Shown one piece after another: positions 6,157 to 59,312 of a stretch of DNA of 64,000 nt. This DNA is from Patescibacteria group bacterium. GTDB taxonomy: Bacteria; Patescibacteriota; Minisyncoccia; UBA6257; 2-01-FULL-56-20. The stretch covers positions 71,040 to 135,039 of the forward strand of contig JBBTUL010000011.1 in NCBI GenBank assembly GCA_038063755.1, given 5' to 3'. The notes under the pieces are model-generated. The model did not search any database. It was not told the DNA's origin and saw only the letters and a program-made list of their open reading frames with translations. A program made the translations under genes and the position numbers. Position 1 is the first letter of the stretch. The number at the start of each line of letters is the position of its first letter.

Positions 6157-6161
6157 GAATC

Positions 6162-12447: not shown

Positions 12448-12478
12448 GGGGATAGACAAAGCACATCCTCTTCAAACC

Positions 12479-12524: not shown

Positions 12525-12947
12525 ATTAACCAACGCTCTTAAGAGATCGGCTAACTTGTCTATGGAAAATTGAAATATGCCGAGTATCGCCCTTATGACC
12601 CACATGAAGAGCCTCCAGAAGACCAAGATGAACTGATCAAAGCCTACTCCGGTGACACCTCTGAACCAGTTGTTGATTCCCCGAAGGACGCCCTCTTCTA
12701 TAATTGGCTGAGACAAGTCCTTCGCATTGGTTGAAGTACCCTTCACAGTGTCTTGAACGTCTTCTTTCGCACCACTAAAAAATCCAGAAAAAATGTTTCC
12801 TAAAACCCTCGCTACGTCTTGTGATGCGTTGGATTCGAGATCCGGAAGCGCAGGGTCTGTTTTAGACGAAGTTGCGACTCCTGTCGCAAACGCTGTCGTT
12901 CCAAGAACAAGACTAAAAACAACAGTCCAGAAAAAGATCCTTCTCAT
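12522..12947 (-). CDS. hypothetical secreted/membrane protein (141 aa)
   Basis: N-terminal signal-like helix, Ser/Thr-rich middle region, C-terminal amphipathic/hydrophobic segment. Confidence 0.45.
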   Translation of the reverse strand: MRRIFFWTVVFSLVLGTTAFATGVATSSKTDPALPDLESNASQDVARVLGNIFSGFFSGAKEDVQDTVKGTSTNAKDLSQPIIEEGVLRGINNWFRGVTGVGFDQFILVFWRLFMWVIRAILGIFQFSIDKLADLLRALVN

Positions 12948-24487: not shown

Positions 24488-26263
24488 CTATCGAGTTTCA
24501 GCCAAAAAACACGACTCACAGTAAACAATTGCCTCTTTCTCATTCGAAAATGTGGTCTCGAATGAGTTCTCACACCTCTTGGATCCGTGAGAATGAATTG
24601 TGTTATTTTTATACTTTCCCGACTCTCCTCCTTCGCACATACAAAATCCCTTCTGCCATCGGGGAGGGTTCCTCTTTGCTGTTCGCGCAGAATGCCGACA
24701 AGGAAAACAGCTTCTTGGAAGGGCAAGATTGAAGCGCTTGTAAAAACCAAGTTCTGCGGATGCAATTTGATAGGCTCGCTTGCAGGAAGCGCATCCGATA
24801 ACCTCTTTAAGAATTTCGTCGGATGTGTCGCTGATGTGGTCTGATAGCTCCTCAGCTCGAACCGTTATTTCAAAGTCGCGCAGATTCGGATCCTGCCACC
24901 CGAAACCCGTTTTTAACGCTTCTTCTTTCGCAAGTGGAAGAAGATCAAGCGCCATTGTTTCGTTGTATGCGTATGGGGAAAACTCCGGAGGAAAAAACTC
25001 GCCGTACCCGTAACTCTTCCCCCTGGCATCAACGTACGGCATCTCCTTCATGTGTTTTTTGAGTAGTGAAACCTTCTTCTGATACTCCTCTTTCGAATAC
25101 TGTTTATTAAAAATGCAATACTGCGCGCTTCTAAGGCCAATGCACGCGAAACAGTTCGAGGAAGAGTGACACTCGATACAATATTCAAGCTCGGTACAAC
25201 CAGGCCAGCATTCGATGCAAAATTTCAAGCGGTTTGATTCGTTGCCACAGGTAACGCATTCATATATAAGCTCGGTTGAATCACCCCAATTGGTGAAGTC
25301 GTATGATTCGCTTGTTCCCGCAAGAATGCTTTGGGAATACTTTACGTTCTCTACCCCTATTGCCTCATAGCAGTATTTTGCGTTTTTGGAATTATACACG
25401 TACTCACCAATTACATTTTCATTCTGGGACCCGTGAAAAAACTTCTCGGGAAACTGCTTGTCCATACTCATCATGCGTTCTTTCATCTTCCGAACTACTT
25501 CGTACGAACCGAGGTCAAACTTTTTGATTTCTCGCTCATATTCTTCCTTTGTATATGGCTTGTTGAAAATATAATATTTCTTATGCAGAAGATTCACGCA
25601 ACCAAAGCAGTCCGAACAATCGTCGCATCGTACGAGAAAGGCAGAGTTTTGACACCCTTCACAGTCGTAGGAGAAAAACGTTTTGTAACAACTTGCGACG
25701 AGAGAAACCTCGCTGCAAAGCTCCAGTTTTCCCGATTGGAAAAAATCCACTGAATCCTTCACATCCATAAAGGTAACGCCATAAAGCGAGTTTTCTCCAC
25801 GACCTCCATTGAAGCAAAGATAGCAATTTTTTAGGTCCCCGGACTGATCGCAATAATCGCTGTTTGAGAGTCTGAGGATAGACCGTGAAGCCCGAGGAAC
25901 TTTTTTGATAAACTCCCGGAATTGCGCAAAAAACGGTCTTGAAAGATCGCACTCTTCCCCAAAAGACAGGGGGTCCCATGAGTCAGACCACCACCGAGGA
26001 TGGTCGTAGACTTGAATCGGAGCTGACCTTGGAAAACTCGAAAATATTTCTTCTTTTGTAACGGCATCGACATTCCGAAATAATTGGTGGTCATTTCTGA
26101 AACACATCCTCCTCTGCATTCTGCACTCCGGACACCGCGTCGGTGGTGGAACATCCATCTTCTTGTAGAAATCGAAGTCTTCGGACTCAATAACAAAGTC
26201 CTTGCTGCAGTTTTGACAGACTTGTCCTGAGCTTGCCGAAGGGTTTTTGGTTTCGTGATTCAT
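24488..26263 (-). CDS. cysteine-rich zinc-ribbon-flanked family protein, paralog B
   Basis: CQNCSKDFVIESEDFDFYKKMDVPPPTRCPECR N-ribbon. The second N-ribbon Cys are lost (RNVDAVTKEEIFSSFPRS). Central YCIECHSSSNCFACIGLRSAQYCIFNKQYSKEEY. C-terminus AIVYCESCF. Confidence 0.8.
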   Translation of the reverse strand: MNHETKNPSASSGQVCQNCSKDFVIESEDFDFYKKMDVPPPTRCPECRMQRRMCFRNDHQLFRNVDAVTKEEIFSSFPRSAPIQVYDHPRWWSDSWDPLSFGEECDLSRPFFAQFREFIKKVPRASRSILRLSNSDYCDQSGDLKNCYLCFNGGRGENSLYGVTFMDVKDSVDFFQSGKLELCSEVSLVASCYKTFFSYDCEGCQNSAFLVRCDDCSDCFGCVNLLHKKYYIFNKPYTKEEYEREIKKFDLGSYEVVRKMKERMMSMDKQFPEKFFHGSQNENVIGEYVYNSKNAKYCYEAIGVENVKYSQSILAGTSESYDFTNWGDSTELIYECVTCGNESNRLKFCIECWPGCTELEYCIECHSSSNCFACIGLRSAQYCIFNKQYSKEEYQKKVSLLKKHMKEMPYVDARGKSYGYGEFFPPEFSPYAYNETMALDLLPLAKEEALKTGFGWQDPNLRDFEITVRAEELSDHISDTSDEILKEVIGCASCKRAYQIASAELGFYKRFNLALPRSCFPCRHSARTAKRNPPRWQKGFCMCEGGESGKYKNNTIHSHGSKRCENSFETTFSNEKEAIVYCESCFLAETR

Positions 26264-26290: not shown

Positions 26291-28099
26291 TTACGCCGTC
26301 TCTGCCTGAAAACATCCTTCACAATAAACGATATCGGGAAGCGCCTTGTCATATGGAGACTCGAATGTATTCGTACAGCTTGATGACGATTCGTGGGCTT
26401 GATGCAGGGCGATGTTTTTATAGCCACCATCTAACGACACGTCCCCTCTACACTGACATTCTCGAGTATAGAGCTTTGCCGGAAGACGCTGTTTAATACG
26501 TTCGAAGTGGCGTGAATTGTAACAACGACGAGGGATTGGCAATCCGAACCTTTTATAGAATTCGAGTTCTTGTGGGATGATGCGAAAAACTCCCGTGCAG
26601 TTGTGCAGGATGGCCTCTTCGGAATCTTCATCCCAAGATCGGCATCGGATTGTTTGTCCGAGAAGGTCATCCGTGGCGTCCTCTATGGAATCCGGAACAT
26701 CTTGCCATCGCAGTGTCGCTTCGTGCTTTTTTCCCTCAGGTTTCTTCCATATCAGATGCTGTTCGGCAGCGGCATGTTCGGATAGTGGAAAGTTTTCTTG
26801 CGCGAGCGTGTGGTTATAGGGATAGGGAGAAAATTCCGCCGGGAAAAACTCGCCGTATGGGTACCGTAGCCCATTTGCGTCAACATACGGCATTGTATTC
26901 ATGTGCTCAATAACGCGTTCCCGGAGCGCGAAATACTCTTCCTTCGAATATTGCTTGTTCAAAATACAATACTCTCTCTTCTTAACTCCGGCACATCCGA
27001 AAAGATTTGAGGAATTACTACAATAGAGTGCGTATTCAAGATTCTTGTTTTCGGGCCAGCATTCCCAACAGAAGCGACAGTTATATATCCCCAAGCCACT
27101 TGCGACCGCTTCATAGACCAATTCGGCGTTATCTCCCCAGACGGTATAGTCGTAGCACTGCCTCGTGGGAGGCGTTAGTATGTACTGACAGTAACGACTG
27201 TCTTCAAGGCCAAGCGCAAGATAGCAATTTTCGGCATTTTTTGATTGATAGACATACGATCCCGAAGCATTTACGTTTTTGTTGTTTGCCGCATATTTAT
27301 TCGGAAACTTCAGCCAGAACTCGGCGCTTTTCTTCTTGAACTCTTCGATCTTTCCATAGGAGTTGAGAGCGAATTCCTTTACTCGTCTCTCGTATTCCTC
27401 CTTGGTGTAGGGTTCGTTGAAGATATGATATTTCTTGTTCTTTAAATTCACGCAACCGAAGCAGTCATGGCAACCAATACATTGTTTTGAGAACCACATA
27501 TCGTACGATCCGTTACAGCGCGTTGAAAAAAAGCACTTCGAACAGTCGGCGGAAAACGAAAGCTCGTAGCAGAATTCGCTACTATCCATATGTGAAAAAT
27601 CTATGCAGTTCTTTCCGTTATTAACCCCATTTCCGTACATGCAATCTTCGGCATAATTTCCGTTGAAAACGAGGTAGCAATTTTTAAACCCGGTATAATT
27701 GTTGGAATAGTCACTGTTTGTTCCATACACAACCGAAAGCGAGTAAATCGGCACCGCTTTCCAGAGGTCATAAAGCTGTGCAAGAAACGGCTTTGAAAAA
27801 TCGACCTCGCGCCCGAAAGACATCGGATCGATGGTGTCCCCGAAAAACAATTCATTCTCGACGATTTTTTGGCGGGAATCCGGAGGGAACATTGAAAATA
27901 TTTCCTTGCCCGAAACTTCGCTTTTTCGCTTATATAGGAAGCGCTCGTTTCTAAATGCCATCCTCCGCATCATCCTGCAGGCCGGACACCGCGTCGGTGG
28001 TGGAACATCCATCTTCTTGTAGAAATCGAAATCGACCGGCTCAAGAGCGAAATCCTGGTGACAACTCTCGCAGATGCGGTGTTCTATTGCGTCTGTCAC
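26291..28099 (-). CDS. cysteine-rich zinc-ribbon-flanked family protein, paralog C
   Basis: CESCHQDFALEPVDFDFYKKMDVPPPTRCPACR. Central CIGCHDCFGCVNLKNKKYHIFNEPYTKEEYE and FGCAGVKKREYCILNKQYSKEEY. C-terminus GVFRIIPQELEFYKRFGLPIPRRC ... PDIVYCEGCF. Sits in tandem with B. Confidence 0.8.
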   Translation of the reverse strand: MTDAIEHRICESCHQDFALEPVDFDFYKKMDVPPPTRCPACRMMRRMAFRNERFLYKRKSEVSGKEIFSMFPPDSRQKIVENELFFGDTIDPMSFGREVDFSKPFLAQLYDLWKAVPIYSLSVVYGTNSDYSNNYTGFKNCYLVFNGNYAEDCMYGNGVNNGKNCIDFSHMDSSEFCYELSFSADCSKCFFSTRCNGSYDMWFSKQCIGCHDCFGCVNLKNKKYHIFNEPYTKEEYERRVKEFALNSYGKIEEFKKKSAEFWLKFPNKYAANNKNVNASGSYVYQSKNAENCYLALGLEDSRYCQYILTPPTRQCYDYTVWGDNAELVYEAVASGLGIYNCRFCWECWPENKNLEYALYCSNSSNLFGCAGVKKREYCILNKQYSKEEYFALRERVIEHMNTMPYVDANGLRYPYGEFFPAEFSPYPYNHTLAQENFPLSEHAAAEQHLIWKKPEGKKHEATLRWQDVPDSIEDATDDLLGQTIRCRSWDEDSEEAILHNCTGVFRIIPQELEFYKRFGLPIPRRCYNSRHFERIKQRLPAKLYTRECQCRGDVSLDGGYKNIALHQAHESSSSCTNTFESPYDKALPDIVYCEGCFQAETA

Positions 28100-33188: not shown

Positions 33189-34241
33189 ATGGAAACAGCA
33201 CTTCTTTCTTTCTTTTTCGCGGTTTTATTCATCGGTTTCTTGTATCTCGCATACATAGTACGAAAGAACACGAGCGAAAAGCCAAGAGATGATTCTCAGT
33301 CGATGCTGCTTCTGCAAAATCAGATAGCGGAACTCAATCGAACGCTCGACATGAAACTCCGAGAGACCGGCGACAGAGCCGAACGCCAATTCGGGGAAAG
33401 CGCCAAGATTATCAAGGACGTTACCGAGAGACTAACCAAGCTCGACGAAACAAACCGACAAGTGGTGAACTTCGCAGATCAGCTCCAGTCGCTCCAGGAC
33501 ATTTTAAAAAATCCGAAACAGCGCGGCGTTTTGGGCGAATACTACTTGGAGGCCCTTCTTAAAAATGTTCTTCCCCCGGGCTCATACCAGACACAGTATG
33601 AGTTTAAAGATGGAACTAAGGTTGACGCTGTTGTTTTCGTAAAGGACAAGATCATTCCGATCGACTCAAAGTTTTCTCTTGAAAACTACAACCGGATTGT
33701 TGAAGAACGAGATCCTACGGAGCGAGAACGCCTCGAAAAGGTTTTTAGGAATGACCTCAAGAACCGAATCGACGAAACATCGAAATATGTAAAGCCGGAT
33801 GAAGGAACGATGGAATTTGCCTTTATGTTTATTCCGCACGAGGCAATCTATTACGATCTTCTTGTGGCGCAGATCGGCGCAGTCAAAGTCTCGACTCGCG
33901 ATCTCATCGAATATGCCTTTCGAGACAAGCACGTCATCATTGTTTCCCCCACTTCATTCCTCGCTTATCTCCAAACCGTTCTCCAGGGCCTTAAGGCTCT
34001 CCAGATTGAAGAGTCGGCAAAGGAAATACGCAAAAACGTTGAACTTCTCGCGAGCCACTTAGTGAGCTATGAAGAATATATGCGAAAACTGGGAGGCCAT
34101 CTTGGAACCACAGTTACCGCCTATAATAACGCGTCGAAGGAATTCAAGAAGGTTGACAAGGACATTTTCAGAATCACCGACCGCGTACTTGAAGTTGAAT
34201 CAGCCGAACCCGAACTAGAAAAGCCGGAGCTAAGTCGGTAA
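33189..34241 (+). CDS. rmuC: DNA recombination protein RmuC
   Basis: N-terminal TM, a long coiled coil, GVLGEYYLEALLKNVLPPGSYQTQYEF and IDSKFSLENY RmuC core. Confidence 0.8.
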   Translation: METALLSFFFAVLFIGFLYLAYIVRKNTSEKPRDDSQSMLLLQNQIAELNRTLDMKLRETGDRAERQFGESAKIIKDVTERLTKLDETNRQVVNFADQLQSLQDILKNPKQRGVLGEYYLEALLKNVLPPGSYQTQYEFKDGTKVDAVVFVKDKIIPIDSKFSLENYNRIVEERDPTERERLEKVFRNDLKNRIDETSKYVKPDEGTMEFAFMFIPHEAIYYDLLVAQIGAVKVSTRDLIEYAFRDKHVIIVSPTSFLAYLQTVLQGLKALQIEESAKEIRKNVELLASHLVSYEEYMRKLGGHLGTTVTAYNNASKEFKKVDKDIFRITDRVLEVESAEPELEKPELSR

Positions 34242-34242
34242 C

Positions 34243-34268
34243 AAAAAGACCGAGGGGTTAGCTCGGTC
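34243..34268. terminator. bidirectional rho-independent terminator (rmuC / EEP nuclease)
   Basis: AAAAA-GACCGAG-gggttag-CTCGGTC, with T-rich sequence on the plus side and a T-run on the minus side. Confidence 0.6.
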
Positions 34269-34283
34269 ATATGATTTCTGCTT

Positions 34284-34991
34284 TTAGAGATCAATCTCGA
34301 CTGAAATCGCAAGGTGATCAGAGCCGCTGGGCGCCATCACCTGAAACGATCCGGGAACGACTCCGTCGTAAATATCACGACTTACGAAGATATAATCCAG
34401 TCGGGTATTGATCCCCCCCGGATTGCATCCGCTGCACCCTTCGGGATGCGCGCTCCAAGTCGGATTCGAATCGGGATCGGTGTCCCGCATGTGGTTGTTC
34501 ATTGCTGCAATCACTTCGCTTCCGGGGACTGCGTTGAAATCCCCCATCACAACCGTTCGCCTTCCTCGTGAGATCCGAAGAAGACGATGGGCCTGAACTA
34601 GCTGCGTATCCGAGAGCCTTTGATGCGTATGCAGAAGATGCGTACAATATACATGAAGGAGCGGCTCTCCATCACCATCTTCAATCCCTGCATAAACAGC
34701 TCTCCGCATGTCCTTTCGGGACAAAGGATAGCTACCTATGGGTCCAGTCCCTGGTAACCTAGAAAAAATCGCATTCCCCATCACCCTTCCGTCCTTAAGG
34801 GTCATGACCCCAGAACATACTCCATGCCTATATCCTTCCCCAATGAGGATGCGGCGAATATCCCTCTTCGGGTCATTCAGCATGACCTCTTGGAGAGCAA
34901 TCACATCCGCATTGCACGCCCTAAGCAACCTGGAAACTCCCTCGAAATCACAGTTGCACCAAATGTTCCAGGAGAAAAGCTTGATTCTCAT
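34284..34991 (-). CDS. endonuclease/exonuclease/phosphatase (EEP) family protein
   Basis: MRIKLFSWNIWCN ... ADVIALQEV N-terminal EEP motif. The C-terminus carries the SGSDH catalytic His region. Confidence 0.75.
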   Translation of the reverse strand: MRIKLFSWNIWCNCDFEGVSRLLRACNADVIALQEVMLNDPKRDIRRILIGEGYRHGVCSGVMTLKDGRVMGNAIFSRLPGTGPIGSYPLSRKDMRRAVYAGIEDGDGEPLLHVYCTHLLHTHQRLSDTQLVQAHRLLRISRGRRTVVMGDFNAVPGSEVIAAMNNHMRDTDPDSNPTWSAHPEGCSGCNPGGINTRLDYIFVSRDIYDGVVPGSFQVMAPSGSDHLAISVEIDL

Positions 34992-35058
34992 CGGCCTCTT
35001 CCTCCTTTAAATTACTTTCTCCAACGTACACTCTTTTTACAAATTCGTCAAGACAAAC

Positions 35059-35082
35059 AAAAAGACCGAGCGTAGCTCGGTC
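35059..35082 (-). terminator. rho-independent terminator (minus-strand sense)
   Basis: GACCGAGC-gta-GCTCGGTC, followed by TTTTT on the minus strand. Confidence 0.55.
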
Positions 35083-35269
35083 GAATGATGAAGTCCCGAA
35101 GGACATTATTGGAAGGTACGATCCCCTGCCTCGATGGGACGCATGGGGCACCCCGCCGGATGGCCAGGCATGGCCTGACGTTTGGTGTTACCCGGTGTTT
35201 CTTGGCTTCTCCGCACCGAGGCAGGGGTACTTATAATACTTACATCCGCAAATATCGTTGTCAAGAATC
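35083..35269. other. GC-rich structured non-coding element (candidate small RNA; strand and identity unresolved)
   Basis: GTACGATCCCCTGCCTCG (35117-35134) pairs with CGAGGCAGGGGTAC (35217-35230), enclosing ~80 nt. A further internal hairpin GGCCAGG-cat-GGCCTGAC is present. The element is much more GC-rich than flanking DNA and has no convincing ORF. Confidence 0.3.
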
Positions 35270-37024
35270 CTACCGCCTTCCTCCCTGCTCGCGCCAAAGA
35301 GCCGCGTAAAGCCCTTCTTTCGTGAGCAATTCCGTGTGACTCCCGCGCTCTACGATCCTTCCCTTCTCAAGAACATAAATCCGCTTCGCATGTTGAATGG
35401 TCGAAAGGCGGTGCGCTACAAGGATGGTGATTACGTTCGGGCGCGACACTTCGATATCTTGAATCGTTTTGGTGATGGCTTTTTCGGTAATGGAGTCAAG
35501 GCTCGATGTCGCTTCGTCGAAAATAATAAATTCGGGGCTTCGCAGAAGTGCTCGGGCAATCGCAAGACGCTGACGTTCTCCACCTGAAATCTTTATCCCT
35601 CCTTCGCCAATTCTTGTGTCAAGATCCTTTCCGCCGCGCTCTATAATCGCAAGTGCGGAAGCGAGTCGGAGCGCCTCTCGACATTCGTTATCGCTCGCAT
35701 CGGGGTTTACAAAAAGTAGATTTTCCCGGATTGTTCCTGCAAAAAGTTGTGTTTCCTGAGAAACAAGGCCGATTCGCTTTCGGAGCGCTGCGTAATCGAT
35801 CTCCGACGAATCGATTTTGTTTATAAAAATTTGTCCTTCCGTTGGTCGATATAAGCCGGCAAGGAGTTTTATCACGGTGCTCTTTCCCCCACCTGATGGA
35901 CCGACGAAAGCAATCACCTCTCCGTCTTTTGCTTCAAATGAAATTTCTTTTACGGATGGATCTTCATTCCCCTCGTAGGAGAAACTAACTTTTTTAAAGT
36001 TGATACTTTTAAGTGGTCCTGTATCTTTCGGACTATACGGCGCGTGCTCCGGCTCTTTTGTAAAAACTCCCTCAAGCTGCTCAAGGCTTGCCTTCGCCTC
36101 TTGAAACTGGGCTGTAACATTTCCGATTTCCGAGAGGGGGTTGAAAATGGCAAATGAATAAAAAAGTAACGAGAAGAATTCTCCGAGCGTTATCGATCCC
36201 CGAAAAACGAACCATAACATAAGAAGTAAGAGTCCTGAACGAAAAGCATTTATTGTAGTTCCCTGGATAAAGCTCATGGTCCGTATAAGACGAACCTTCT
36301 TGAGCTCAAGATCGAGTATCTTGTCGTTCACCGAATTCAGGCGCCCAATCTCCTGCCGCTCTAAGCCAAGGCTTTTCACCAGTTCAACGTTTCGCATGGT
36401 CTCAGTCGTTGATCCAGCAAGCTCTGCCGTTTCACGCACAACGGCCTTTTGGGCAGCTTTAATCTTTTTTGAAGTGAAAAAAGCAACAGTTCCAAGCACC
36501 GGAATCATGAGAAAATACATGAGTCCTATAATCCACTGAACGGTTGCCGCGTAAATAAGAACAAAGATAATTCCGATGAGAGCAAGGAAGAGATTGTTGA
36601 TCGAACTTGAGATAACACGCTCGCTGTCAGACCTTGCTTTTTGAAGTTTCTGAAGCAGCTCGCCGGATCGCTGATCTTCAAAAGCCACGTACGGAAGCGA
36701 AAAAGAATGCGCAACGCTTTCCGCGTACATCCTGGCTCCTACGCGCTGGGTTACCACGCTCACATAGTAATCCTGAAAGTTTTTCGCAATTCGCGAAATC
36801 AGAGCCACGCCCATTGAGGCAAGAAGCAAGAGAAGAACTCCCCGCAGAAAGTCTTCCCGCGAAAGTTCGTGAATTTTCTGCGCGTAGTCATCAATGATCA
36901 GACGAAAAATTTGCGGATCAAGAAGCGAGAAGCCCTGATTTATGGTTGCGAGAAAAAGCGCGAGAGTAAGGTATTTCTTGTTCCTCTTTAAGTATGAAAA
37001 TATAAGACGCATAGGTCCGGTCAT
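35270..37024 (-). CDS. ABC transporter, fused permease/ATP-binding protein (MsbA-like exporter)
   Basis: Six-TM N-domain, Walker A GPSGGGKST, signature ISGGERQRLAIARAL, Walker B IIFDEATSSLD. Confidence 0.85.
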   Translation of the reverse strand: MTGPMRLIFSYLKRNKKYLTLALFLATINQGFSLLDPQIFRLIIDDYAQKIHELSREDFLRGVLLLLLASMGVALISRIAKNFQDYYVSVVTQRVGARMYAESVAHSFSLPYVAFEDQRSGELLQKLQKARSDSERVISSSINNLFLALIGIIFVLIYAATVQWIIGLMYFLMIPVLGTVAFFTSKKIKAAQKAVVRETAELAGSTTETMRNVELVKSLGLERQEIGRLNSVNDKILDLELKKVRLIRTMSFIQGTTINAFRSGLLLLMLWFVFRGSITLGEFFSLLFYSFAIFNPLSEIGNVTAQFQEAKASLEQLEGVFTKEPEHAPYSPKDTGPLKSINFKKVSFSYEGNEDPSVKEISFEAKDGEVIAFVGPSGGGKSTVIKLLAGLYRPTEGQIFINKIDSSEIDYAALRKRIGLVSQETQLFAGTIRENLLFVNPDASDNECREALRLASALAIIERGGKDLDTRIGEGGIKISGGERQRLAIARALLRSPEFIIFDEATSSLDSITEKAITKTIQDIEVSRPNVITILVAHRLSTIQHAKRIYVLEKGRIVERGSHTELLTKEGLYAALWREQGGRR

Positions 37025-37043
37025 CTTAGCACAAAAATTACAA

Positions 37044-37067
37044 TAAAAAAGACCGGATGAATCCGGT
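37044..37067 (-). terminator. rho-independent terminator (minus-strand sense) immediately upstream of the ABC transporter start
   Basis: GACCGGA-ttca-TCCGGTC followed by TTTTTT on the minus strand, ~335 nt downstream of the exonuclease stop. Confidence 0.5.
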
Positions 37068-37405
37068 CGTCTAATAAATATTTCTTAAAAGCGGCGCGGC
37101 AGAGGTACGAAAAAGACCGCGAGACAGTCCGCCCAAAAATTACCATCGAAAAAGGCCTTTGCCTTTCGATATAAAGACACTGCCTCTTTCTCTGAAGTTT
37201 CTTTCCTGCAGAGCCTTCCTCCGATGAGACTCCTTCCTTCCTCGGACGAAGCGACGAGGAAAGAGTCTCCGTTAGAAAAAGAAACAATGCAATTTCCACC
37301 TGAAGGAATAACAGCCGAAGAAGACTCGATCATTCCACGCATTGTGTATCCTCCTCTAGTTGTGCCGAACTGTTTATACCGCAAACCGAACCGGTTCGTC
37401 AAGGC

Positions 37406-38113
37406 CTATGCCCTTATATAATCGTTCCAATATCGGTAGAGATCCTTGGTCGCACGAAGATCACCAACATTATACCTGGCAATTTCCAAAAACTTTTTTT
37501 CACTAAAAAGTCGGCTCACATCGTCTCCCGTTACTCCATCTTCCTTCGGGCTTTTGATGCCAAATGCCCGAGACCAAAGATGCAAACTTCCTTTTCTGCG
37601 CACCGCTCCGTAGAACGTGAGTTGATCCTGAAGATCAATATGCCGACATCCGCGCTGTTGCGAAAGATATCTTCCTTCCATCAGGTCTTGTGTCGGACGG
37701 ATTTTGTGAATTGCAGAACGAATCGCGAGAAACGGCGCGTCAAACCCTCGCCCATTGAAGCTCACAAACTCGTCGTACTTTTTCGCCCCTTCCCAGAAGC
37801 TTTTGAGCATTTCTTTTTCGCTCATCGGCTTGAATGTAATACCCTCCTCCGTCGTCGGCTCAAGTTTTTCCCCAGGAGCTTGATAATAGACAACGCCCTC
37901 GTCTCTGTCGTAGTCAAGCACACCGATTGCAACAATCTCACCCGTGAGCGGCGAAAAGCCGAGTCCGTTTTTTAGCTCTTCAAGCGCGCCCTCGAATTCC
38001 TCGGAGTCGCCGAATTCTTTTTTTATCCAGCGAGTGAGGTTTTCCTGCGTCGCCTCGTCGAGCGCGTTCCAATCCTCCCCAACTGTTTCGATATCAAAAA
38101 TGAGTCTGGCCAT
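37406..38113 (-). CDS. DEDD-type 3'-5' exonuclease (PolB-exonuclease-like / RNase H fold)
   Basis: MARLIFDIETVG (Exo I DxE), FNGRGFDAPFL (Exo II) and YNVGDLRATKDLY (Exo III Y-x3-D). Confidence 0.75.
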   Translation of the reverse strand: MARLIFDIETVGEDWNALDEATQENLTRWIKKEFGDSEEFEGALEELKNGLGFSPLTGEIVAIGVLDYDRDEGVVYYQAPGEKLEPTTEEGITFKPMSEKEMLKSFWEGAKKYDEFVSFNGRGFDAPFLAIRSAIHKIRPTQDLMEGRYLSQQRGCRHIDLQDQLTFYGAVRRKGSLHLWSRAFGIKSPKEDGVTGDDVSRLFSEKKFLEIARYNVGDLRATKDLYRYWNDYIRA

Positions 38114-45926: not shown

Positions 45927-46071
45927 CCTCCCATTATACTCACGAACAACCTTTTCCTCCCGCCATGCATCTTTCGGGAGTGCGCTCCAAGCCTGCCTGC
46001 CGTCAGGCAGAGCCGCTAAGCCAGGTCCTACCCTCCCTTAAAGATGCATGGCGAGATCGCTTTCCCGAATA

Positions 46072-48860: not shown

Positions 48861-50600
48861 CTATGCGACTTCTGCGTTATAGCATTGCTCGCAGTATACG
48901 ATCTCGGGACGGTCGGGGGCGTAGGAGGTTTCGAATTCGCTTGGGCAGGGAGCGTTTTCGTGGTCGTGCCCTTTCTTGCACATACACCTACGACGCCAAA
49001 GGCGCAATGGTTTATGCAGGTCCATTCGCTCTCCTCTTCTACAGCCGGGGCACAGTCGCGGAATTGGTAAATCCATCTTTCGGTAAAAGCCGAACTCCTG
49101 TTGGGTGGTCTTAAAAGCGAGGGTGCAGTTATGGATGCATCCTTGGCGGTGCTCGCATTCTATAACTTCGCTCAGAATATCGTCGTTGGCCTCCTTGATC
49201 GTAGCCGGCAGATCGCTTGAGGTTTTTGTTGATTGGTACTCTCTTGGTTCCGGCTCGGCCCATCGACAGCCGAACGCCAACGCCTCGTCTTTATGCAGAG
49301 GAAAGTAAAACTGCGTCAGCGATTCGTTATACGCAAACGGGGAAAGTTCGACAGGAAAGAACTCGCCGTACGGGTACACCTGTCCGTTCAATCCAACGTA
49401 TGGATTGTTGCTCATACCCTCAACTATGCTCGCCCGAAGCTCTAAGTACTCGTCTTTGCCGTATTGCTTGTTTAATATGCAATATTGCTTTTTCCGCAGA
49501 CCTACACACCCGAAGAGATCTTGGCTAACACGACAGTAGTCACAATATTGGATTCTCGCACTACTCTCGAACGTGTTTAAAGAAAAATAAATATTGGAAT
49601 CGAGATATCCCACATTAACACCCTCGTATAACAGCGAACACTCCTTGTCCCCTACACCATACATGTCATAGGAATCCTTCGCGTGACTTGCCTGCGCGCA
49701 GTATTTGATATCTTCACAATCTGCGGAGTTGAAACTATGTTTTGCATTCTTGCAGTTAACGAGGTTATCGCCCGAGGAGCCAACGCACTTGATGATATTC
49801 GCATATTTATGAAACGCGGCTTCTTTCATGCGAACATATTCCATACGGAGTTCCCTCTGGGTAGAATAGTCGCTACTAATAGCTTCGAGCCGCTTCCGAT
49901 ACTCTTCTTCGGCAAGCTGTTGGTTACGAAACACAAATTTACCGTTGCGTAAATTGCTGCTCATAAAGCAGTCGGAAGAGTTGCGACAGTCATAAAGGTA
50001 TGAGCTATTCATGCAATCCTTGCAATCAGAAATGAAGACGCACTTCACGCAGCGTTCTGAATCCATAGCCTCGTAAACGCTCTCGGAATTCATAATCACG
50101 ATGGAATCAAGTGTTTCTCTACAGCTCCACGCCCCTTTGGAATACGACACTGTGTCTGAATTCAGCGTTGAGGGTGAAAGATACACGTTTTTAGAAAACC
50201 ACGTGAAATCAGAATAGGGCGAATTCTCGTTTTGATAAGCTTCCAGACTTGGCCTCGGCATGACATCCGAAAGCTCCTTCCACTGAGAGAAAAAAGTCTT
50301 GTTCGAATTGTATTCGAGGCCGTAATCCAATGGATCCCACTTATCAGACCACCAACACTCATTGCAATACACGGGGAATTTAACGCTTTTCGAATAATGA
50401 GAAATGCCCTGTATGCCGCATAACCCACACTGGAACTTATGCATATTGAACTCATTTCGGAAAAGCATTCTTCGCTTCATCCTACACTCCGGGCACCACG
50501 TCGGCGCCGGAACGTCTATCTTTTTGTAGAAATCGAAATCCTCGGATTCGATGGTGAACGCTTGATGACAACTTTGACAATTTTTTGTCTCTTGATTCAT
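48861..50600 (-). CDS. cysteine-rich zinc-ribbon-flanked family protein, paralog D
   Basis: MNQETKNCQSCHQAFTIESEDFDFYKKIDVPAPTWCPECR. Central YCDYCRVSQDLFGCVGLRKKQYCILNKQYGKDEY. C-terminus PEIVYCEQCYNAEVA. Start chosen to match the family N-terminus; the ORF is open to 50621. Confidence 0.8.
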   Translation of the reverse strand: MNQETKNCQSCHQAFTIESEDFDFYKKIDVPAPTWCPECRMKRRMLFRNEFNMHKFQCGLCGIQGISHYSKSVKFPVYCNECWWSDKWDPLDYGLEYNSNKTFFSQWKELSDVMPRPSLEAYQNENSPYSDFTWFSKNVYLSPSTLNSDTVSYSKGAWSCRETLDSIVIMNSESVYEAMDSERCVKCVFISDCKDCMNSSYLYDCRNSSDCFMSSNLRNGKFVFRNQQLAEEEYRKRLEAISSDYSTQRELRMEYVRMKEAAFHKYANIIKCVGSSGDNLVNCKNAKHSFNSADCEDIKYCAQASHAKDSYDMYGVGDKECSLLYEGVNVGYLDSNIYFSLNTFESSARIQYCDYCRVSQDLFGCVGLRKKQYCILNKQYGKDEYLELRASIVEGMSNNPYVGLNGQVYPYGEFFPVELSPFAYNESLTQFYFPLHKDEALAFGCRWAEPEPREYQSTKTSSDLPATIKEANDDILSEVIECEHRQGCIHNCTLAFKTTQQEFGFYRKMDLPIPRLCPGCRRGERMDLHKPLRLWRRRCMCKKGHDHENAPCPSEFETSYAPDRPEIVYCEQCYNAEVA

Positions 50601-50655
50601 GGTCGTGTTTGTCCCGCCCACAGGCGGGATCCTCGATTTTGTCTATTCGCTACGC

Positions 50656-50730: not shown

Positions 50731-52452
50731 TTATGCAACCTCTGCGTTATGGCAAGATTCACAGTATAGATTCTCTCCGGGAAGCGATGTTTCAAACGCG
50801 TTTCCGCATGGGCTGTCGCCATGCGCGTGAGAAACGCTGTTTTGATAACCGCCCGAGCCAATCGTTCCTCTGCAAGCACATTGGCCTTCGTGGAGGTAAT
50901 TTGGTCCGCGAGCTTGAAATCTCCTGGCATGTCGACAATCTGGACAAAGCCGGGGAAGCGGCACTGAAAGTTTTTTGTAAAACGCAAATTCATCGGGAAT
51001 AATTCGATAATTTTTCTTGCAATCGATGCAGGCAAAAATCTTTTCAACAAGCGATTGATCGGCATCGCCAATCGCATCAGGAATCTCCGCCCAGGAAATC
51101 GTTTCTTTTCCAAATGTGCCGCGCTCGAAATCCTCCCACTTAAAACCAAGCTCGAGCGCCTCTTCCTTTGAGAGCGGAAACTGTTCCATTGCTGCGGATT
51201 CGTTGTAGCCAAACGTGCTGACTGATGCGGGGAAGAATTCGCCGTAATTTCCCGCATCTTTCATAGACGCAACTATCTTCTCGCGCAGTGTTTGATACTC
51301 CTCTTTCGAATATTCGTGGTTAAGAATGCAGTAATCTTTTTTACGAACTCCAACCGATCCAAAACAGTTGTTCGCATTGAAGCAGTAGTAGCAGTATTCC
51401 GTAAACGAACACGTCCAGCACATGCGGCAGCAGATTTGATTCGAGACATCCATTCCGGCGTTCACCGTGTTATACATCATCTCAGCGTTGCGCCCCGTAG
51501 TATCGCAGTCCATACAATCCTTGGCGTTACGCCACACATGGACGTTATACTTACAATCCTCGGCCTCATAACAATGAAAGCAGGATTTGCAATTTTTTGC
51601 GTTTTTTATGTAGTTTCCGCTTGAATTTGGCGCTTGGACAATTTCTGCATACTTTCTCGGTTGGGTTTTCAAAAATTTCTCGAATTTTTCTCTGAACGCT
51701 TCAACGCCGGAATTCGTATCGAGTCGGAAATTCTGCAGCTCCTTTTCATATTCTTCTTTCGAATATGGCTTATTGAAAATGCAGTATTTGGAGTTTCTTA
51801 AATTCACACACCCAACGCAGTTCGACACACCTCGACAGTCAAACAGAAAGGCACTCTCGCGGCAATCATGACATCCTCTGCTCCAGGAAATGCCGTAGCA
51901 GCCATAACAGTCGTCGCTTTCGTACGAAAGCTCGGTTTGGTGTGAAAATGAAACGTCGACAAGATCACGACATTGCTGAATCCAATAACAATGCGTGCAA
52001 TTCTCGTTGTTTGAAGACTCCACGATCATGTAGCAATTCTTGCTGTCTGCGGAAATATTCGTGTATTCCGAATTCGTGCTACGAATGTATACGAGCGCTA
52101 CTTTCGGAACCGAATCCCATACCGCCTTGAACTGTTCCATGAACGGTCTCGATGGCGTGTATGCCCGGCCATAATCAAGTGGATTCCAATCGTCGGAGAA
52201 CCAGCAGTCATGACACCAGACGGTATACGGCTTCTCGGGACTATACATGGAGATCACCACTTTCTTGCATTTGTCGCACGCGCGTCGATAGAAACTCCGT
52301 TCGTTACGGAATGAAAGTCGGTGTCTCGCACGACAGAGAGGACAAAGCTTCGGCGCCAGAACGTCTATCTTTTTATAGAAATCAAAATCTTCCGGTTCGA
52401 TGAAAAAAGGCTTCTTGCATTGTGTGCAGGTTTTCGTCTCCGGCATTGTCAT
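50731..52452 (-). CDS. cysteine-rich zinc-ribbon-flanked family protein, paralog E
   Basis: CTQCKKPFFIEPEDFDFYKKIDVLAPKLCPLCR. Central FDCRGVSNCVGCVNLRNSKYCIFNKPYSKEEYE. C-terminus NYRIIPDEFAFYKKLSVPLPRLCPDCRH ... NLYCESCHNAEVA. Confidence 0.8.
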   Translation of the reverse strand: MTMPETKTCTQCKKPFFIEPEDFDFYKKIDVLAPKLCPLCRARHRLSFRNERSFYRRACDKCKKVVISMYSPEKPYTVWCHDCWFSDDWNPLDYGRAYTPSRPFMEQFKAVWDSVPKVALVYIRSTNSEYTNISADSKNCYMIVESSNNENCTHCYWIQQCRDLVDVSFSHQTELSYESDDCYGCYGISWSRGCHDCRESAFLFDCRGVSNCVGCVNLRNSKYCIFNKPYSKEEYEKELQNFRLDTNSGVEAFREKFEKFLKTQPRKYAEIVQAPNSSGNYIKNAKNCKSCFHCYEAEDCKYNVHVWRNAKDCMDCDTTGRNAEMMYNTVNAGMDVSNQICCRMCWTCSFTEYCYYCFNANNCFGSVGVRKKDYCILNHEYSKEEYQTLREKIVASMKDAGNYGEFFPASVSTFGYNESAAMEQFPLSKEEALELGFKWEDFERGTFGKETISWAEIPDAIGDADQSLVEKIFACIDCKKNYRIIPDEFAFYKKLSVPLPRLCPDCRHARRFQARGPNYLHEGQCACRGTIGSGGYQNSVSHAHGDSPCGNAFETSLPGENLYCESCHNAEVA

Positions 52453-52941: not shown

Positions 52942-53271
52942 TTATCGTATTTCTGTCCCTGGGGAAACATCCCTCTCGACCGTAAGCGCAACCGGAAGCC
53001 CTTCCTCATCTGTCGCCGCAAGCATCATTCCCCTGCTTTCCTCTCCCATGAGCGTGCGGGGATCGAGATTCACAACCACGATAATGTTTTTCCCGACCAT
53101 TTCTTCCGGAGTATACGCTTTCCCAATCCCTGCAAGAATCTGCCGGATCTCCTCTGGATCACCTCCGAGACTTACCTGCATTTTAAGAAGCTTTTCCGAA
53201 CCCTCCACCCGCTCGGCGGAGAGCACCCTGCCGACCTTGAGCTCAGTATTCTTAAATTCGTCTATGGTCAT
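52942..53271 (-). CDS. tRNA-binding domain protein (CsaA/Myf-like)
   Basis: ELKVGRVLSAERVEGSEKLLKMQVSLGG ... NIIVVVNLDPRTLMGEESRGMMLA is the OB-fold tRNA_bind signature. Start at the internal Met (ATG at 53269-53271). Confidence 0.75.
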   Translation of the reverse strand: MTIDEFKNTELKVGRVLSAERVEGSEKLLKMQVSLGGDPEEIRQILAGIGKAYTPEEMVGKNIIVVVNLDPRTLMGEESRGMMLAATDEEGLPVALTVERDVSPGTEIR

Positions 53272-53464
53272 TCGAAAATTGTAGCATGGTGAATCGCATT
53301 CACGAAAAACATCCGGGCGGTTTCGTTTTACATCTCTCGAACCGGAATACTTCGGCTCCGGCGGCCGAAATTTCCTGCCGCTCGTCGGCTCGACGCTTCG
53401 CGTCCAAGCTCGATCCGACTCCGCAAGCTTCTCGATCGGCAAAACGAAACCTACCCCTTGACGA

Positions 53465-53564
53465 AGGGTGAGGTAGCCCGCAGGTATTTTTCGGGGTTTC
53501 GCGGAGCGCGACGGCGCAAGCGTAAGCAACATTTCTTAAAAAATGTATGCGGCCCCGAAAAATA
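53465..53564. repeat. 21-22 bp perfect inverted repeat with 56-nt spacer
   Basis: GCCCGCAGGTATTTTTCGGGG at 53466-53486 is exactly reverse-complementary to CCCCGAAAAATACCTGCGGGC at 53543-53563. Confidence 0.7.
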
Positions 53565-53580
53565 CCTGCGGGCTGACGTG

Positions 53581-57560: not shown

Positions 57561-59312
57561 CTATGCTACTTCTGCATTGTAGCAACCTTCACAATACACG
57601 ATCTCGGGGCGACCGGGGGCGTAGGAGGTTTTGAATTCTGCGAAGCAAGAAGTATTCCCGTGTGAGTGAGGGATGGTATTTTTGTACACGCCGCTTGTCG
57701 ATTGCGGACCACCACAGTCGCAACTTCGCTTCCATAACCTCGGAGGATTCACTCTTTTAAACCGCGCATAATAGCGACAATTCGGACATAAAACCGGAAG
57801 AGGAACACCAAACCTCCGATAAAGCTGAAGTTCTGCGGGAACGATTCGAAAGGCGGCTGTGCATTTTTCTCCGCACCCACCATCATGACTACAACCGATC
57901 ACCTCATTTACAATGTCATCCTGAACCTCGGTTATCAAGTCAGGAAGCTCTGCGGGCTTCTTCGTTATCGCGTAATTCTTTTTTTCATCATCCTTCCAGC
58001 GCTCTCCATGTCGCAACGCTTCGTCTTTTGAAACGGGAAACCAATCAAGGGCCGCGGATTCGTTGTACGCAAACGGACTAAGCTTGTTCGGAAAAAACTC
58101 GCCATATTCCCCCGTTCGTTTCATATGTTCAGCGATCTTCGCTCTCAATGTCTCAAACTCTTCCTTTGAATATTTTTTATTCAAAATCGCGTAGGAGGCA
58201 TGCTTCAGTCCCGCTGAACCAAACACGTTCGTGCACGAATGACAGTTATTTGAGTACTCCGCATCAACGCATTTCCAGCAAAATACCGTAAACTTATTTC
58301 CCCGAGAGTTATCGGGCGTAACAGATTCATAGCACAACTCCGGGTTTCCGGTGTAAATACAGTCGTACGAATCTTTGGCTCGATCATTTATGACAATGTA
58401 GGATGAATTCTCGATTGGCGAGAAACAGTAAAAGCACTGTTTTGCCGATTTTGCCTCAAGAAGAAAGAACCCCGAGGAGTTGGTTGTTTTGGGGGCGTGT
58501 GTGTACCTTCGCGGAAACTGCAGACTAAATTCACTAAACATTTTTTTGTTCGCTTCGATGCCCGCACGACTTCCGAGATTCAACTTCGCAAGCTCTTTCT
58601 CGTACTCGTCCTTAGCGTACTGTCTGTTAAGGATGCAATATCGCTTGTTTCGCAAACCGACACATAAAACACAGTCAGAGCATCCTCTAAGATCGAACCC
58701 GAACACGCAATTGTTTGAGTCAAAACAAAGTTCACAATATTTGCAGTTATAACACTTATCGCAGTTAATGCTTTCGTACATCAATTCGGAATTATTTACA
58801 TTCCATGCGTCCATAATGTCCTTCGCATGATTCACGATGTACATATAAAGGCCGTTTTCGACGTACCAACCACAAGCCCCAAGATAACAGTTTTTACTAA
58901 ATGCCCAATCGTAGGTATATTCGCAATTCACACTACCAACACCATCGTCGTTCATACTCGATATTGCCGGCACCTTATTCATGAGTTCCTGAAGTTGATC
59001 AAAGAATGGACGTGAAAAATCAAAATCACGCCCATATGAGGCCGGATCCCATCCGTCAGACCACCAGCACCTTACGCAATAGACCGGAAATTCTGTATCG
59101 GGTGGATACATTCCAATCATATCCTTCCTGCACAAATCACACTTGCGGCGATAAAACGTCCGCTCGTTGCGAAATCTTAGCCGACGTTTCAGGCGACACT
59201 CCGGGCACCAGGTCGGATACGGAACGTCTATCTTTTTATAGAAATCGAAATCTTCGGATTCGATCGTGAAATCCTTATGGCAGTTTTGACAAACCTTGAT
59301 TTCACTACTCAT
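57561..59312 (-). CDS. cysteine-rich zinc-ribbon-flanked family protein, paralog F
   Basis: CQNCHKDFTIESEDFDFYKKIDVPYPTWCPECR, then RKCDLCRK...VYCVRCW. Central FGFDLRGCSDCVLCVGLRNKRYCILNRQYAKDEYE. C-terminus AAFRIVPAELQLYRRFGVPLPVLCPNCRY ... PEIVYCEGCYNAEVA. Confidence 0.8.
   Translation of the reverse strand: MSSEIKVCQNCHKDFTIESEDFDFYKKIDVPYPTWCPECRLKRRLRFRNERTFYRRKCDLCRKDMIGMYPPDTEFPVYCVRCWWSDGWDPASYGRDFDFSRPFFDQLQELMNKVPAISSMNDDGVGSVNCEYTYDWAFSKNCYLGACGWYVENGLYMYIVNHAKDIMDAWNVNNSELMYESINCDKCYNCKYCELCFDSNNCVFGFDLRGCSDCVLCVGLRNKRYCILNRQYAKDEYEKELAKLNLGSRAGIEANKKMFSEFSLQFPRRYTHAPKTTNSSGFFLLEAKSAKQCFYCFSPIENSSYIVINDRAKDSYDCIYTGNPELCYESVTPDNSRGNKFTVFCWKCVDAEYSNNCHSCTNVFGSAGLKHASYAILNKKYSKEEFETLRAKIAEHMKRTGEYGEFFPNKLSPFAYNESAALDWFPVSKDEALRHGERWKDDEKKNYAITKKPAELPDLITEVQDDIVNEVIGCSHDGGCGEKCTAAFRIVPAELQLYRRFGVPLPVLCPNCRYYARFKRVNPPRLWKRSCDCGGPQSTSGVYKNTIPHSHGNTSCFAEFKTSYAPGRPEIVYCEGCYNAEVA

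What the first reader, a model, noticed from the sequence alone, without database searches (positions are those of the whole stretch)
35083..35269. GC-rich ~115-nt long-hairpin element between the EEP nuclease and the ABC transporter (candidate small RNA)
The 187-nt gap contains GTACGATCCCCTGCCTCG paired with CGAGGCAGGGGTAC around an ~80-nt interior that holds further hairpins. A strong minus-sense terminator (35059-35082) immediately follows it. Size and shape are compatible with a small SRP-type or 6S-type RNA. I could not find the SRP domain-IV GGAA/AGCAGC signature in either orientation, so identity is open.
Basis: seen in the sequence. Interest (0 to 1): 0.5.

Follow-up and report, generated by a model that had tools for sequence, protein, structure and literature searches.

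The report
Orphan GC-rich hairpin, candidate small RNA
A real but species-specific 115-base GC-rich hairpin with promoter-like motifs and a terminator sits in a gene-insertion hotspot of an uncultured Patescibacteria genome; it is not SRP, 6S or any catalogued RNA, and its role is unproven.

Summary
The hairpin (35116-35230) and the minus-strand terminator (35082-35054) are in the sequence as described. Only the basal G+C clamp is statistically meaningful. It is 11 bp perfect, or 14 bp with one G.U on the minus strand. The 83-nt interior folds no better than shuffles on either strand.

Rfam 15 gives no hit at gathering level, and only sub-threshold hits to unrelated families at E up to 10. SRP and 6S do not appear at all, so neither is supported.

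The host is a Patescibacteria MAG from Hainich groundwater. On the minus strand a TTGACA-17-TGnAAGTAT promoter-like site lies 5 nt after the ABC stop codon, which puts the predicted start at the first base of the hairpin. A C/U-rich linker, a cUUCGg mini-hairpin and an intrinsic terminator follow. The EEP gene then has its own promoter-like site. This reads as a ~175-nt stand-alone or 3'UTR-type small-RNA unit.

The element is absent from both related species recovered. One has ABC abutting RmuC, and the other lacks ABC, hairpin and EEP entirely. No second copy or homologue was found anywhere I searched.

Best reading: a lineage-specific small transcript or 3'UTR hairpin (confidence about 0.4). 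Main rival: a DNA-level palindromic insertion. Interest is low.

The parts
35259..35264 (-). -35-like hexamer TTGACA of putative promoter P1, starting 5 nt after the ABC stop codon
   Evidence: Read. TTGACA is enriched in non-coding DNA here: 8 of 21 copies lie in 7% of the window.
35236..35244 (-). TG-extended -10-like box TGTAAGTAT, 17-nt spacer from the -35. Predicted start is about 35230-35228.
   Evidence: The -10 matches only 3 of 6 consensus positions (A2 and T6 present), so it fell below the threshold of the consensus scan.
35116..35230 (-). GC-rich long hairpin, 115 nt, 65% G+C. It is the element of the finding.
35214..35227 (-). 5' arm of the basal clamp on the minus strand, CCCCUGCCUCGGUG. 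It pairs with 35123-35136.
   Evidence: 14 bp with one G.U, of which 11 bp are perfect.
35123..35136 (-). 3' arm of the basal clamp on the minus strand, CAUCGAGGCAGGGG
35163..35179 (-). Apical 7-bp hairpin GUCAGGC-CAU-GCCUGGC. It is the only interior helix present in both the MFE and the centroid fold of the minus strand.
   Evidence: The interior as a whole is not better than shuffles.
35093..35104 (-). Mini-hairpin GUCC-UUCG-GGAC (cUUCGg tetraloop in minus sense), flanked by single-stranded CUUCCAAUAAU and UUCAUCAUUC
35054..35082 (-). Intrinsic terminator T_A: GACCGAGC-UAC-GCUCGGUC followed by UUUUUGUUUG
   Evidence: It is 86% identical over 36 nt to the terminator after the EEP gene.
35023..35051 (-). 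Putative promoter P2 of the EEP gene: TTGACG, 17 nt, TACGTT. Predicted start is about 25 nt before the ATG at 34991, with the SD AAAGGAGG in between.
34284..34991 (-). EEP-family (Exo_endo_phos, distant Xth-like) gene. It is absent, together with the hairpin, from both related species.
34243..34268 (-). Terminator T_B after the EEP gene, abutting the RmuC stop codon. It is the second copy of the 36-nt repeat.
35270..37024 (-). ABC exporter gene (ABC_membrane + ABC_tran). The hairpin lies in its 3' untranslated region.

Best explanation
The hairpin is the 5' domain of a species-specific non-coding transcription unit of about 175 nt on the minus strand (about 35230 to 35055).

Proposed layout:
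- A sigma-70-type promoter (P1, TTGACA-17-TGnAAGTAT) sits 5 nt after the ABC stop codon, so transcription would begin at the first base of the G+C-clamped stem-loop.
- The stem-loop is followed by a C/U-rich single-stranded linker, a cUUCGg mini-hairpin, a second linker and a canonical intrinsic terminator (T_A).
- Read-through from the ABC gene would put the same RNA at the 3' end of the ABC mRNA. This is the layout of a '3'UTR sRNA with its own promoter'.
- T_A insulates the next gene (EEP), which has its own promoter-like site (P2) and a Shine-Dalgarno sequence.

Inferred mechanism: the 14-bp clamp and the terminator hairpin protect both ends of a small stable RNA, or the 3' end of the ABC mRNA, from exonucleases. 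The exposed linkers (CCUUCCAAUAAU, UUCAUCAUUC) are the likely contact surface.

Shown: the stem, the terminator, the promoter-like motifs and their placement, the absence from relatives, and the absence of any known family.
Inferred: that the unit is transcribed, and what it does.
For: - Stem and terminator are in the sequence. Fold z is -3.3 on the minus strand.
- TTGACA behaves as a genuine -35 signal in this genome: 8 of 21 copies lie in the 7% non-coding DNA. All six intergenic TTGAC[AG] sites with a 17-nt spacer and an xAxxxT hexamer are on the minus strand, as are most genes in the window. Two of the six bracket this element, P1 at 35264 and P2 at 35051.
- P1 puts the predicted start at the base of the stem. 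P2 gives the EEP gene a leader of about 25 nt with an SD, as I estimated for the promoter at 63870. The hairpin is therefore not needed as an EEP leader.
- The cUUCGg tetraloop and the G.U that extends the clamp to 14 bp exist only in minus sense.
- It is not coding. The only long ORF across it (74 aa) has no homologue among 1.84 billion representative proteins and no NCBIfam match.
- The genome is 93% ORF-covered by my crude map, and this 278-nt spacer is one of its larger gaps.
- A comparable closed hairpin (B, 46047-45958) is retained in species 2 with an A-to-G change that keeps pairing as G.U on the gene-sense strand.
Against: - There are no expression data.
- The -10 of P1 matches only 3 of 6 positions and failed the consensus scan.
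- The interior folds no better than shuffles, so nothing beyond a clamp is supported.
- There is no homologue and no covariation. The only copies found are 100% identical contigs from the same aquifer population.
- It is absent from both related species, so no conservation argues for function.
- A duplex scan of the linkers against 5' regions of genes in the window singled out no target.
Confidence: 0.4

Rival explanations
1. DNA-level palindromic insertion with no RNA function of its own. It could be a MITE-like element, a template-switch inverted duplication, or a recombination scar left at the junction of two acquired gene cassettes (ABC and EEP) in an insertion hotspot.
For: - The RNH/RmuC junction is a hotspot. 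It is empty in species 3, holds a pilin-like cassette, a 107-aa ORF and ABC in species 2, and holds a 92-aa ORF, ABC, the hairpin and EEP here.
- The hairpin sits exactly at the ABC|EEP boundary. The EEP gene is flanked by 36-nt direct repeats. The pilin-like cassette of species 2 is flanked by a 24-27-nt duplicate of the RNH 3' end.
- Only the terminal inverted repeat is significant and the interior is not. That is the pattern of a TIR plus stuffer.
- Two other closed hairpins (B, C) also occupy sites that are empty in species 3.
- B differs between species 1 and 2 by a 20-nt palindromic indel, which suggests a mutational source of palindromes.
Against: - No second copy was found in about 81 kb of this genome (window plus L213 and L215), nor in about 620 kb of related Patescibacteria loci (about 568 kb plus L123, L216 and L217), nor in viral contigs, phages or plasmids.
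- A, B and C share no terminal sequence.
- There is no clear target-site duplication. The flanking GTAC is itself palindromic.
- It does not explain why a TTGACA-17-TGn box sits exactly where it would start transcription at the stem.
Confidence: 0.28
2. Cis-regulatory 5' leader (attenuator or riboswitch-like) of the EEP nuclease gene. P1 would drive a leader of about 240 nt, and T_A would be a conditional terminator.
For: - The hairpin and EEP are present or absent together relative to species 2 and 3.
- The order promoter, structured RNA, terminator, about 64 nt, ATG resembles Gram-positive leaders and type III toxin-antitoxin loci.
Against: - Four EEP homologue contexts (at most 48% identity) carry no similar upstream element by fold, blastn or covariance model.
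- A 14-bp G+C clamp is too stable to act as a switching P1 helix.
- Reading by eye, the only antiterminator pairing I could find is 6 bp (CUCGGU with ACCGAG). No tool was run on this.
- P2 with its SD gives EEP an ordinary independent promoter.
- There are no tandem repeats as in ToxI.
Confidence: 0.1
3. Plus-strand RNA, antisense to the ABC 3' end, folding into a single 40-bp rod.
For: - The plus-strand fold is one well-defined rod: MFE equals the centroid, -58.2 kcal/mol, z = -3.5, with 7 G.U pairs that would be A.C on the other strand.
- A weak TCGAAT-17-CATTAT site precedes it on the plus strand (read).
Against: - The interior that carries all those G.U pairs is no better than shuffles (z = -0.3).
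- There is no plus-strand terminator and the -35 is poor.
- Nearly all genes and all good promoter-like sites in the window are on the minus strand.
Confidence: 0.05
4. A divergent housekeeping RNA: SRP (4.5S) RNA or 6S RNA.
For: Only its size and hairpin shape.
Against: - There is no Rfam hit for SRP, 6S, tmRNA or RNase P even at E up to 10.
- The helix has no significant interior and no 6S-type central bubble of note.
- It is missing from the same locus in both relatives, and there is no homologue in about 620 kb of related loci.
Confidence: 0.01
5. A chance inverted repeat in a spacer.
For: About 1.3 perfect repeats with arms of at least 11 nt and loops of 40-110 nt are expected per 64 kb by chance. 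The interior is not significantly structured.
Against: - Only about 7% of chance repeats would fall in non-coding DNA, which is about 0.09 expected.
- The stem extends to 14 bp, plus GUAC/GUAC.
- It is 65% G+C in a 47% genome.
- It is precisely framed by promoter-like and terminator signals.
Confidence: 0.06

Closest known systems
3'UTR-embedded small RNAs with their own promoter (the class of DapZ and MicL in enterobacteria; from general knowledge, not tested here)
   Same: A promoter-like site lies at the end of the upstream coding sequence. The transcript shares the mRNA's intrinsic terminator. It would be about 175 nt, with structured ends and single-stranded linkers.
   Different: Expression and targets are unknown. 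The host is a Patescibacteria genome, and I know of no chaperone-dependent sRNA network described for that group (my knowledge, not tested). The 5' domain is an unusually long G+C-clamped hairpin. There is no conservation even between sister species.
Palindromic intergenic repeats and MITEs (REP/BIME, ERIC, RUP, Correia elements)
   Same: Length of about 100-120 bp, terminal inverted repeats, intergenic position just after a stop codon, co-transcription with the upstream gene, and presence/absence polymorphism between close relatives.
   Different: It is single-copy in everything searched. It has no clear target-site duplication and no family consensus.
Integron attC sites
   Same: An imperfect palindrome of about 60-140 nt at the 3' end of a gene, at a cassette boundary in a variable array.
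   Different: No R''/R' core sites (RYYYAAC / GTTRRRY) on either strand. No integrase was seen. The neighbouring cassettes end in plain terminators.
Bacterial small SRP RNA (RF00169) and 6S RNA (RF00013)
   Same: A hairpin-shaped RNA of about 100-180 nt.
   Different: No covariance-model signal, no conserved motifs, and no conservation in relatives.
Type III toxin-antitoxin loci (ToxIN)
   Same: The order promoter, structured RNA, terminator, nuclease-fold gene.
   Different: The RNA is not a tandem repeat array. EEP is not a known type III toxin and has no PADLOC match. EEP has its own promoter-like site.

Membership tests
Bacterial small SRP RNA (RF00169 / SRP clan) | Covariance-model match to the domain IV helix with GNAR tetraloop and symmetric/asymmetric loops | tested here: not met
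   No hit at gathering score in the window. SRP is not listed even at E up to 10 on 34900-35400.
Bacterial small SRP RNA (RF00169 / SRP clan) | Universally conserved across related genomes | tested here: inconclusive
   It is absent at the syntenic locus of both relatives, with no model hit in their fetched DNA. Their whole genomes were not available.
6S RNA (RF00013) | A rod of about 180 nt with a large central bubble, and a covariance-model match | tested here: not met
   No Rfam match. The hairpin is 115 nt and its interior is not distinguishable from shuffles.
Intrinsic (Rho-independent) terminator | G+C-rich stem-loop followed by a U-run on the transcribed strand | tested here: met
   Stem 35082-35064 (8 bp, 6 G-C, loop 3) followed by UUUUUGUUUG. 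This applies to T_A, not to the long hairpin.
Independent or 3'UTR-type small RNA gene | Own promoter upstream and terminator downstream on one strand | tested here: inconclusive
   TTGACA-17-TGnAAGTAT lies at 35264-35236 and the terminator at 35082-35054. The -35 motif is enriched in non-coding DNA, but the -10 is weak and was missed by the consensus scan.
Independent or 3'UTR-type small RNA gene | A discrete transcript is detected | not testable with these tools
   There is no transcriptome access.
Independent or 3'UTR-type small RNA gene | Conserved structure with covariation in relatives | tested here: not met
   No homologue was found. All copies found are identical.
MITE / REP-type repeat | Multiple dispersed copies in the genome | tested here: not met
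   It is single-copy in the 64-kb window and in the extra ~17 kb of the same genome. The rest of the genome was not available.
MITE / REP-type repeat | Terminal inverted repeats | tested here: met
   The arms are 11 nt perfect, or 14 of 14 allowing one transition.
MITE / REP-type repeat | Target-site duplication and an empty site in relatives | tested here: inconclusive
   The flanking GTAC...GTAC is self-complementary. Species 2 lacks the whole 1054-nt block rather than the hairpin alone.
Integron attC | R''/R' core sites RYYYAAC ... GTTRRRY | tested here: not met
   There is no match on either strand in 35090-35260.
Riboswitch / leader of the EEP gene | The same structured element upstream of homologous genes | tested here: not met
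   EEP homologues in L126, L128, L129 and L130 have unrelated upstream DNA and give no model hit.
Type III toxin-antitoxin | The antitoxin RNA is a tandem array of short repeats | tested here: not met
   No tandem or direct repeats lie within 35083-35269.

The most novel reading that the evidence does not exclude
The closed G+C-clamped hairpins of this genome are A (the finding), B at 46047-45958 and C at 53575-53475. B and C occupy sites that are empty in species 3, and A lies in a segment that species 3 lacks altogether. They could be a new kind of self-inserting or cassette-boundary element of Patescibacteria, acting as the recombination or transcription module by which single genes such as EEP are slotted into hotspots like the RNH/RmuC junction. 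Alternatively, the promoter-RNA-terminator unit and the EEP nuclease could form a mobile RNA-plus-nuclease pair.
Probability: 0.06. Interest if true: 0.65.

Novelty: new member of a known kind. Interest (0 to 1): 0.2.

Why it matters
If it is transcribed, this would be one of very few candidate regulatory small RNAs proposed for the Candidate Phyla Radiation. Their non-coding RNA repertoire is almost unexplored because the organisms are uncultured. On present evidence, though, it is an unconserved single-copy hairpin, so its value is mainly local.

The by-product may be more useful. Three related species show stepwise gain of single genes at one convergent gene junction, with short flanking duplications. 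That is a clean natural example of how these tiny genomes pick up accessory genes.

Tried and rejected
- **Rfam.** Gathering level on the whole window, and permissive mode on the locus and on hairpins B and C. This gave only sub-threshold chance matches.
- **Stem-pattern scan of genome contigs**. The pattern was too loose (18 specified bases) and returned 120 or more chance hits in G+C-rich genomes. None resembles the interior. That scan was wasted, and it did not even show the source genome.
- **Sequence and model searches.** blastn, nhmmer and a single-sequence covariance model were run against the window, about 17 kb of additional DNA from the same genome, 85 related loci (about 568 kb) and the two sister-species loci. 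Nothing was found.
- **Other collections.** Viral contigs (two DNA patterns and the EEP protein), phage records and plasmid records. Only 22-nt chance matches appeared.
- **EEP-leader idea.** Four homologue contexts were fetched and their upstream regions folded. No shared element was found.
- **Protein-coding or pseudogene idea.** The 74-aa ORF has no homologue and no NCBIfam match.
- **Defence-system context.** PADLOC gave no hit for EEP and only generic helicase and ABC matches for the neighbours.
- **Plus-strand G.U argument.** Dropped after the interior failed the shuffle test.
- **sRNA target prediction by duplex energy**. Uninformative.
- **Link to the nearby DGR.** Its TR/VR pair lies elsewhere.
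- **Foreign origin by composition.** EEP's G+C and GC3 are barely above those of its neighbours, so this is not informative.
- **Literature search** on Patescibacteria small RNAs. Nothing relevant was found.

Full report
**What is there.**
- The window carries two minus-strand genes. One is an ABC exporter (35270-37024; ABC_membrane + ABC_tran). The other is an EEP-family hydrolase (34284-34991; Exo_endo_phos, distantly Xth-like).
- A 278-nt spacer separates them.
- In it, GTACGATCCCCTGCCTCG (35116-35133) faces CGAGGCAGGGGTAC (35217-35230).
- The perfect arms are 11 nt (35123-35133 and 35217-35227), and this 11-mer occurs nowhere else in the window.
- On the minus strand the clamp extends to 14 bp with one G.U.
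- Reading on along the minus strand come a linker (CUUCCAAUAAU), a GUCC-UUCG-GGAC mini-hairpin (35104-35093), a second linker, and an intrinsic terminator: stem 35082-35064 followed by UUUUUGUUUG.
- The hairpin is 65% G+C in a 46.7% window.

**Is it more than chance?**
- The 236-nt region folds better than dinucleotide shuffles, with z = -3.3 (minus) and -4.0 (plus). The 120-nt core gives z = -3.1 and -3.5.
- In a sliding scan of the whole window, the 120-nt window over the hairpin ranks 3rd on the plus strand and 13th on the minus strand.
- The 83-nt interior alone is no better than shuffles on either strand, at z = -0.3 and +0.5. Only the basal clamp carries signal. The plus-strand rod with its seven G.U pairs is not evidence for anything.
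- Perfect inverted repeats with arms of at least 11 nt and loops of 40-110 nt number 4, against 1.3 expected. Three of them (this one, B at 46047-45958 and C at 53575-53475) lie in, or straddle, the 7% of the window left non-coding by my crude ORF map. As a class they are not chance.

**Known families.**
- Rfam 15 gives no hit at gathering scores in the whole 64 kb.
- Permissive mode on 34900-35400 gives four weak hits, all far below their gathering scores and mostly driven by the terminator and mini-hairpin: rpsL_pseudo, PhotoRC-I, SorY and SorX. SRP, 6S, tmRNA and RNase P are not listed.
- ARAGORN finds no tRNA or tmRNA.
- There are no attC core sites.
- The 74-aa ORF across the element has no homologue in 1.84 billion representative proteins.

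**Source and relatives.**
- The neighbouring proteins are on record as a 'Patescibacteria group bacterium' MAG.
- The contig is CAYHMX010000002.1 of GCA_964357965.1. Identical contigs come from Hainich groundwater samples. All are 100% identical over the locus, so there is no population variation to use.
- **Species 2** (L123/L217; ABC 81%, RNH 91%, DinB 87% amino-acid identity) keeps the synteny RNH ... ABC, RmuC, UvrD-like helicase. Its ABC stop and RmuC stop are 6 nt apart. The whole 1054-nt block 35285-34232 (hairpin, T_A, EEP, T_B) is missing.
- **Species 3** (L216; DinB 79%) has RNH and RmuC 3 nt apart, with no small ORF, ABC, hairpin or EEP.
- The convergent RNH/RmuC junction is therefore a gene-insertion hotspot, and the hairpin sits at the ABC|EEP boundary inside it.
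- The EEP gene is flanked by two 86%-identical 36-nt terminator copies.
- In species 2 a pilin-like cassette is flanked by a 24-27-nt duplicate of the RNH 3' end.

**Search for homologues.** All of the following were negative.
- EEP homologues reach at most 48% identity. The four contexts I fetched have unrelated upstream DNA.
- Eighty metagenome loci with ABC homologues (54-66% identity) show no RmuC synteny and no blastn or nhmmer hit.
- A covariance model built from the element found nothing in those loci and the four EEP-homologue contexts, 85 loci in all.
- The same model finds no second copy in the window, in about 17 kb more of the same genome, or in the sister-species loci.
- Viral contigs, phage records and plasmid records are negative.
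- My one genome-contig scan used too loose a pattern and returned only chance hits.

**Signals that suggest transcription.**
- TTGACA behaves as a real -35 box here. Eight of 21 copies lie in non-coding DNA, and all six intergenic TTGAC[AG]-N17-xAxxxT sites are on the minus strand, as are most genes in the window.
- Two of the six bracket the element.
- P1 is TTGACA 35264-35259, then 17 nt, then AAGTAT preceded by TGn. It starts 5 nt after the ABC stop and predicts a start at 35230-35228, the first bases of the stem.
- P2 is TTGACG 35051-35046, then 17 nt, then TACGTT. It follows T_A directly and gives EEP a leader of about 25 nt with AAAGGAGG.
- The unit P1-hairpin-linkers-T_A would be about 175 nt.
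- The cUUCGg loop and the clamp's G.U exist only in minus sense.
- P1's -10 is weak and failed the stock consensus scan.

**Interpretation.**
- *Best supported (about 0.4).* A lineage-specific small non-coding transcript or 3'UTR hairpin on the minus strand. The clamp and the terminator stabilise its ends, and T_A insulates EEP.
- *Main rival (about 0.28).* A DNA-level palindromic insertion or recombination scar at a cassette boundary. For it: only the terminal repeat is significant, the setting is a hotspot, and hairpins B and C occupy sites that are empty in species 3. Against it: the element is single-copy and the promoter placement would be unexplained.
- *EEP leader or attenuator (about 0.1).* Disfavoured by P2, by the unswitchable 14-bp clamp, and by the absence of the element upstream of EEP homologues.
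- *SRP or 6S.* Effectively excluded.

**Side result.** Hairpin B is retained in species 2 with a 20-nt apical indel. It also has an A-to-G change that preserves pairing as G.U on the gene-sense strand. That is one substitution, so it is suggestive only.

**Verdict.** The feature is real. It is not a known RNA. It is unconserved and single-copy, and its role remains a hypothesis that needs transcript data. Interest is low (0.2). I file it as a new member of a known kind: an orphan sRNA or intergenic hairpin.

Noticed in passing
window 33189-38113; L123 10001-15253; L216 18460-20211: The convergent junction between the RNase-H-like exonuclease gene and rmuC is a gene-insertion hotspot. It is empty (3 nt) in species 3. 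It holds a pilin-like gene, a 107-aa ORF and ABC in species 2. It holds a 92-aa ORF, ABC, the hairpin and EEP in the window.
   Followed up: partly
L123 10685-10708 and 11938-11961; window 35089-35056 and 34275-34240: Inserted genes are flanked by short direct duplications. In species 2 a 24-27-nt copy of the RNH 3' end flanks the pilin-like (N_methyl + Laminin_G_3) gene. In the window two 86%-identical 36-nt terminator copies flank the EEP gene. This suggests integration by recombination at short homologies.
   Followed up: partly
window 45958-46047 (minus strand); L217 2548-2620: Hairpin B is a 17-bp clamp enclosing about 55 nt, with fold z = -5.8, lying between the HhH-GPD glycosylase stop and the dinB start. 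It has no Rfam match. It is conserved in species 2 with a 20-nt palindromic apical indel and a G.U-compatible A-to-G change. It is absent in species 3, where the two genes overlap.
   Followed up: partly
window 53475-53575 (minus strand), plus a terminator-like hairpin at 53440-53474: Hairpin C has perfect 22-nt arms around a 56-nt interior. With its flanks it is the most structured spot in the window (z = -8.3). It lies between the terminator of an RRM-protein gene and a tRNA_bind-domain gene (52942-53271). Species 3 has only a 91-nt terminator-plus-promoter gap there. It has no Rfam match.
   Followed up: partly
L213 4353-6222 (same contig, about 3.6-5.5 kb beyond window position 64000): A diversity-generating retroelement: reverse transcriptase (RVT_1), bAvd, and a 128-nt template/variable repeat pair (6095-6222 against 4353-4480, 88% identity) at the 3' end of a 302-aa gene. 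It is unrelated to the hairpin.
   Followed up: partly
window 9378-11150, 24488-26263, 26291-28099, 48861-50621, 50731-52452, 57561-59312: Six diverged paralogues of about 590 aa with no Pfam family for the one copy annotated in L213 (window 57561-59312). Some lie next to repeated modules of DUF8128, a 167-aa protein and a VirD4/TrwB-like ATPase. This is an expanded gene family of unknown role.
   Followed up: no
window 12471-12525 (minus strand): A 14-15-bp perfect hairpin with a 12-nt loop right after a stop codon, without a proper U-run. Long, strong hairpins after genes seem common in this genome.
   Followed up: no
window-wide: TTGACA is strongly enriched in non-coding DNA (8 of 21 copies in 7% of the sequence). 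Where a 17-nt spacer and an xAxxxT box follow, the site always lies on the minus strand, as do most genes. This Patescibacteria genome therefore appears to use a canonical -35 with rather loose -10 boxes.
   Followed up: partly
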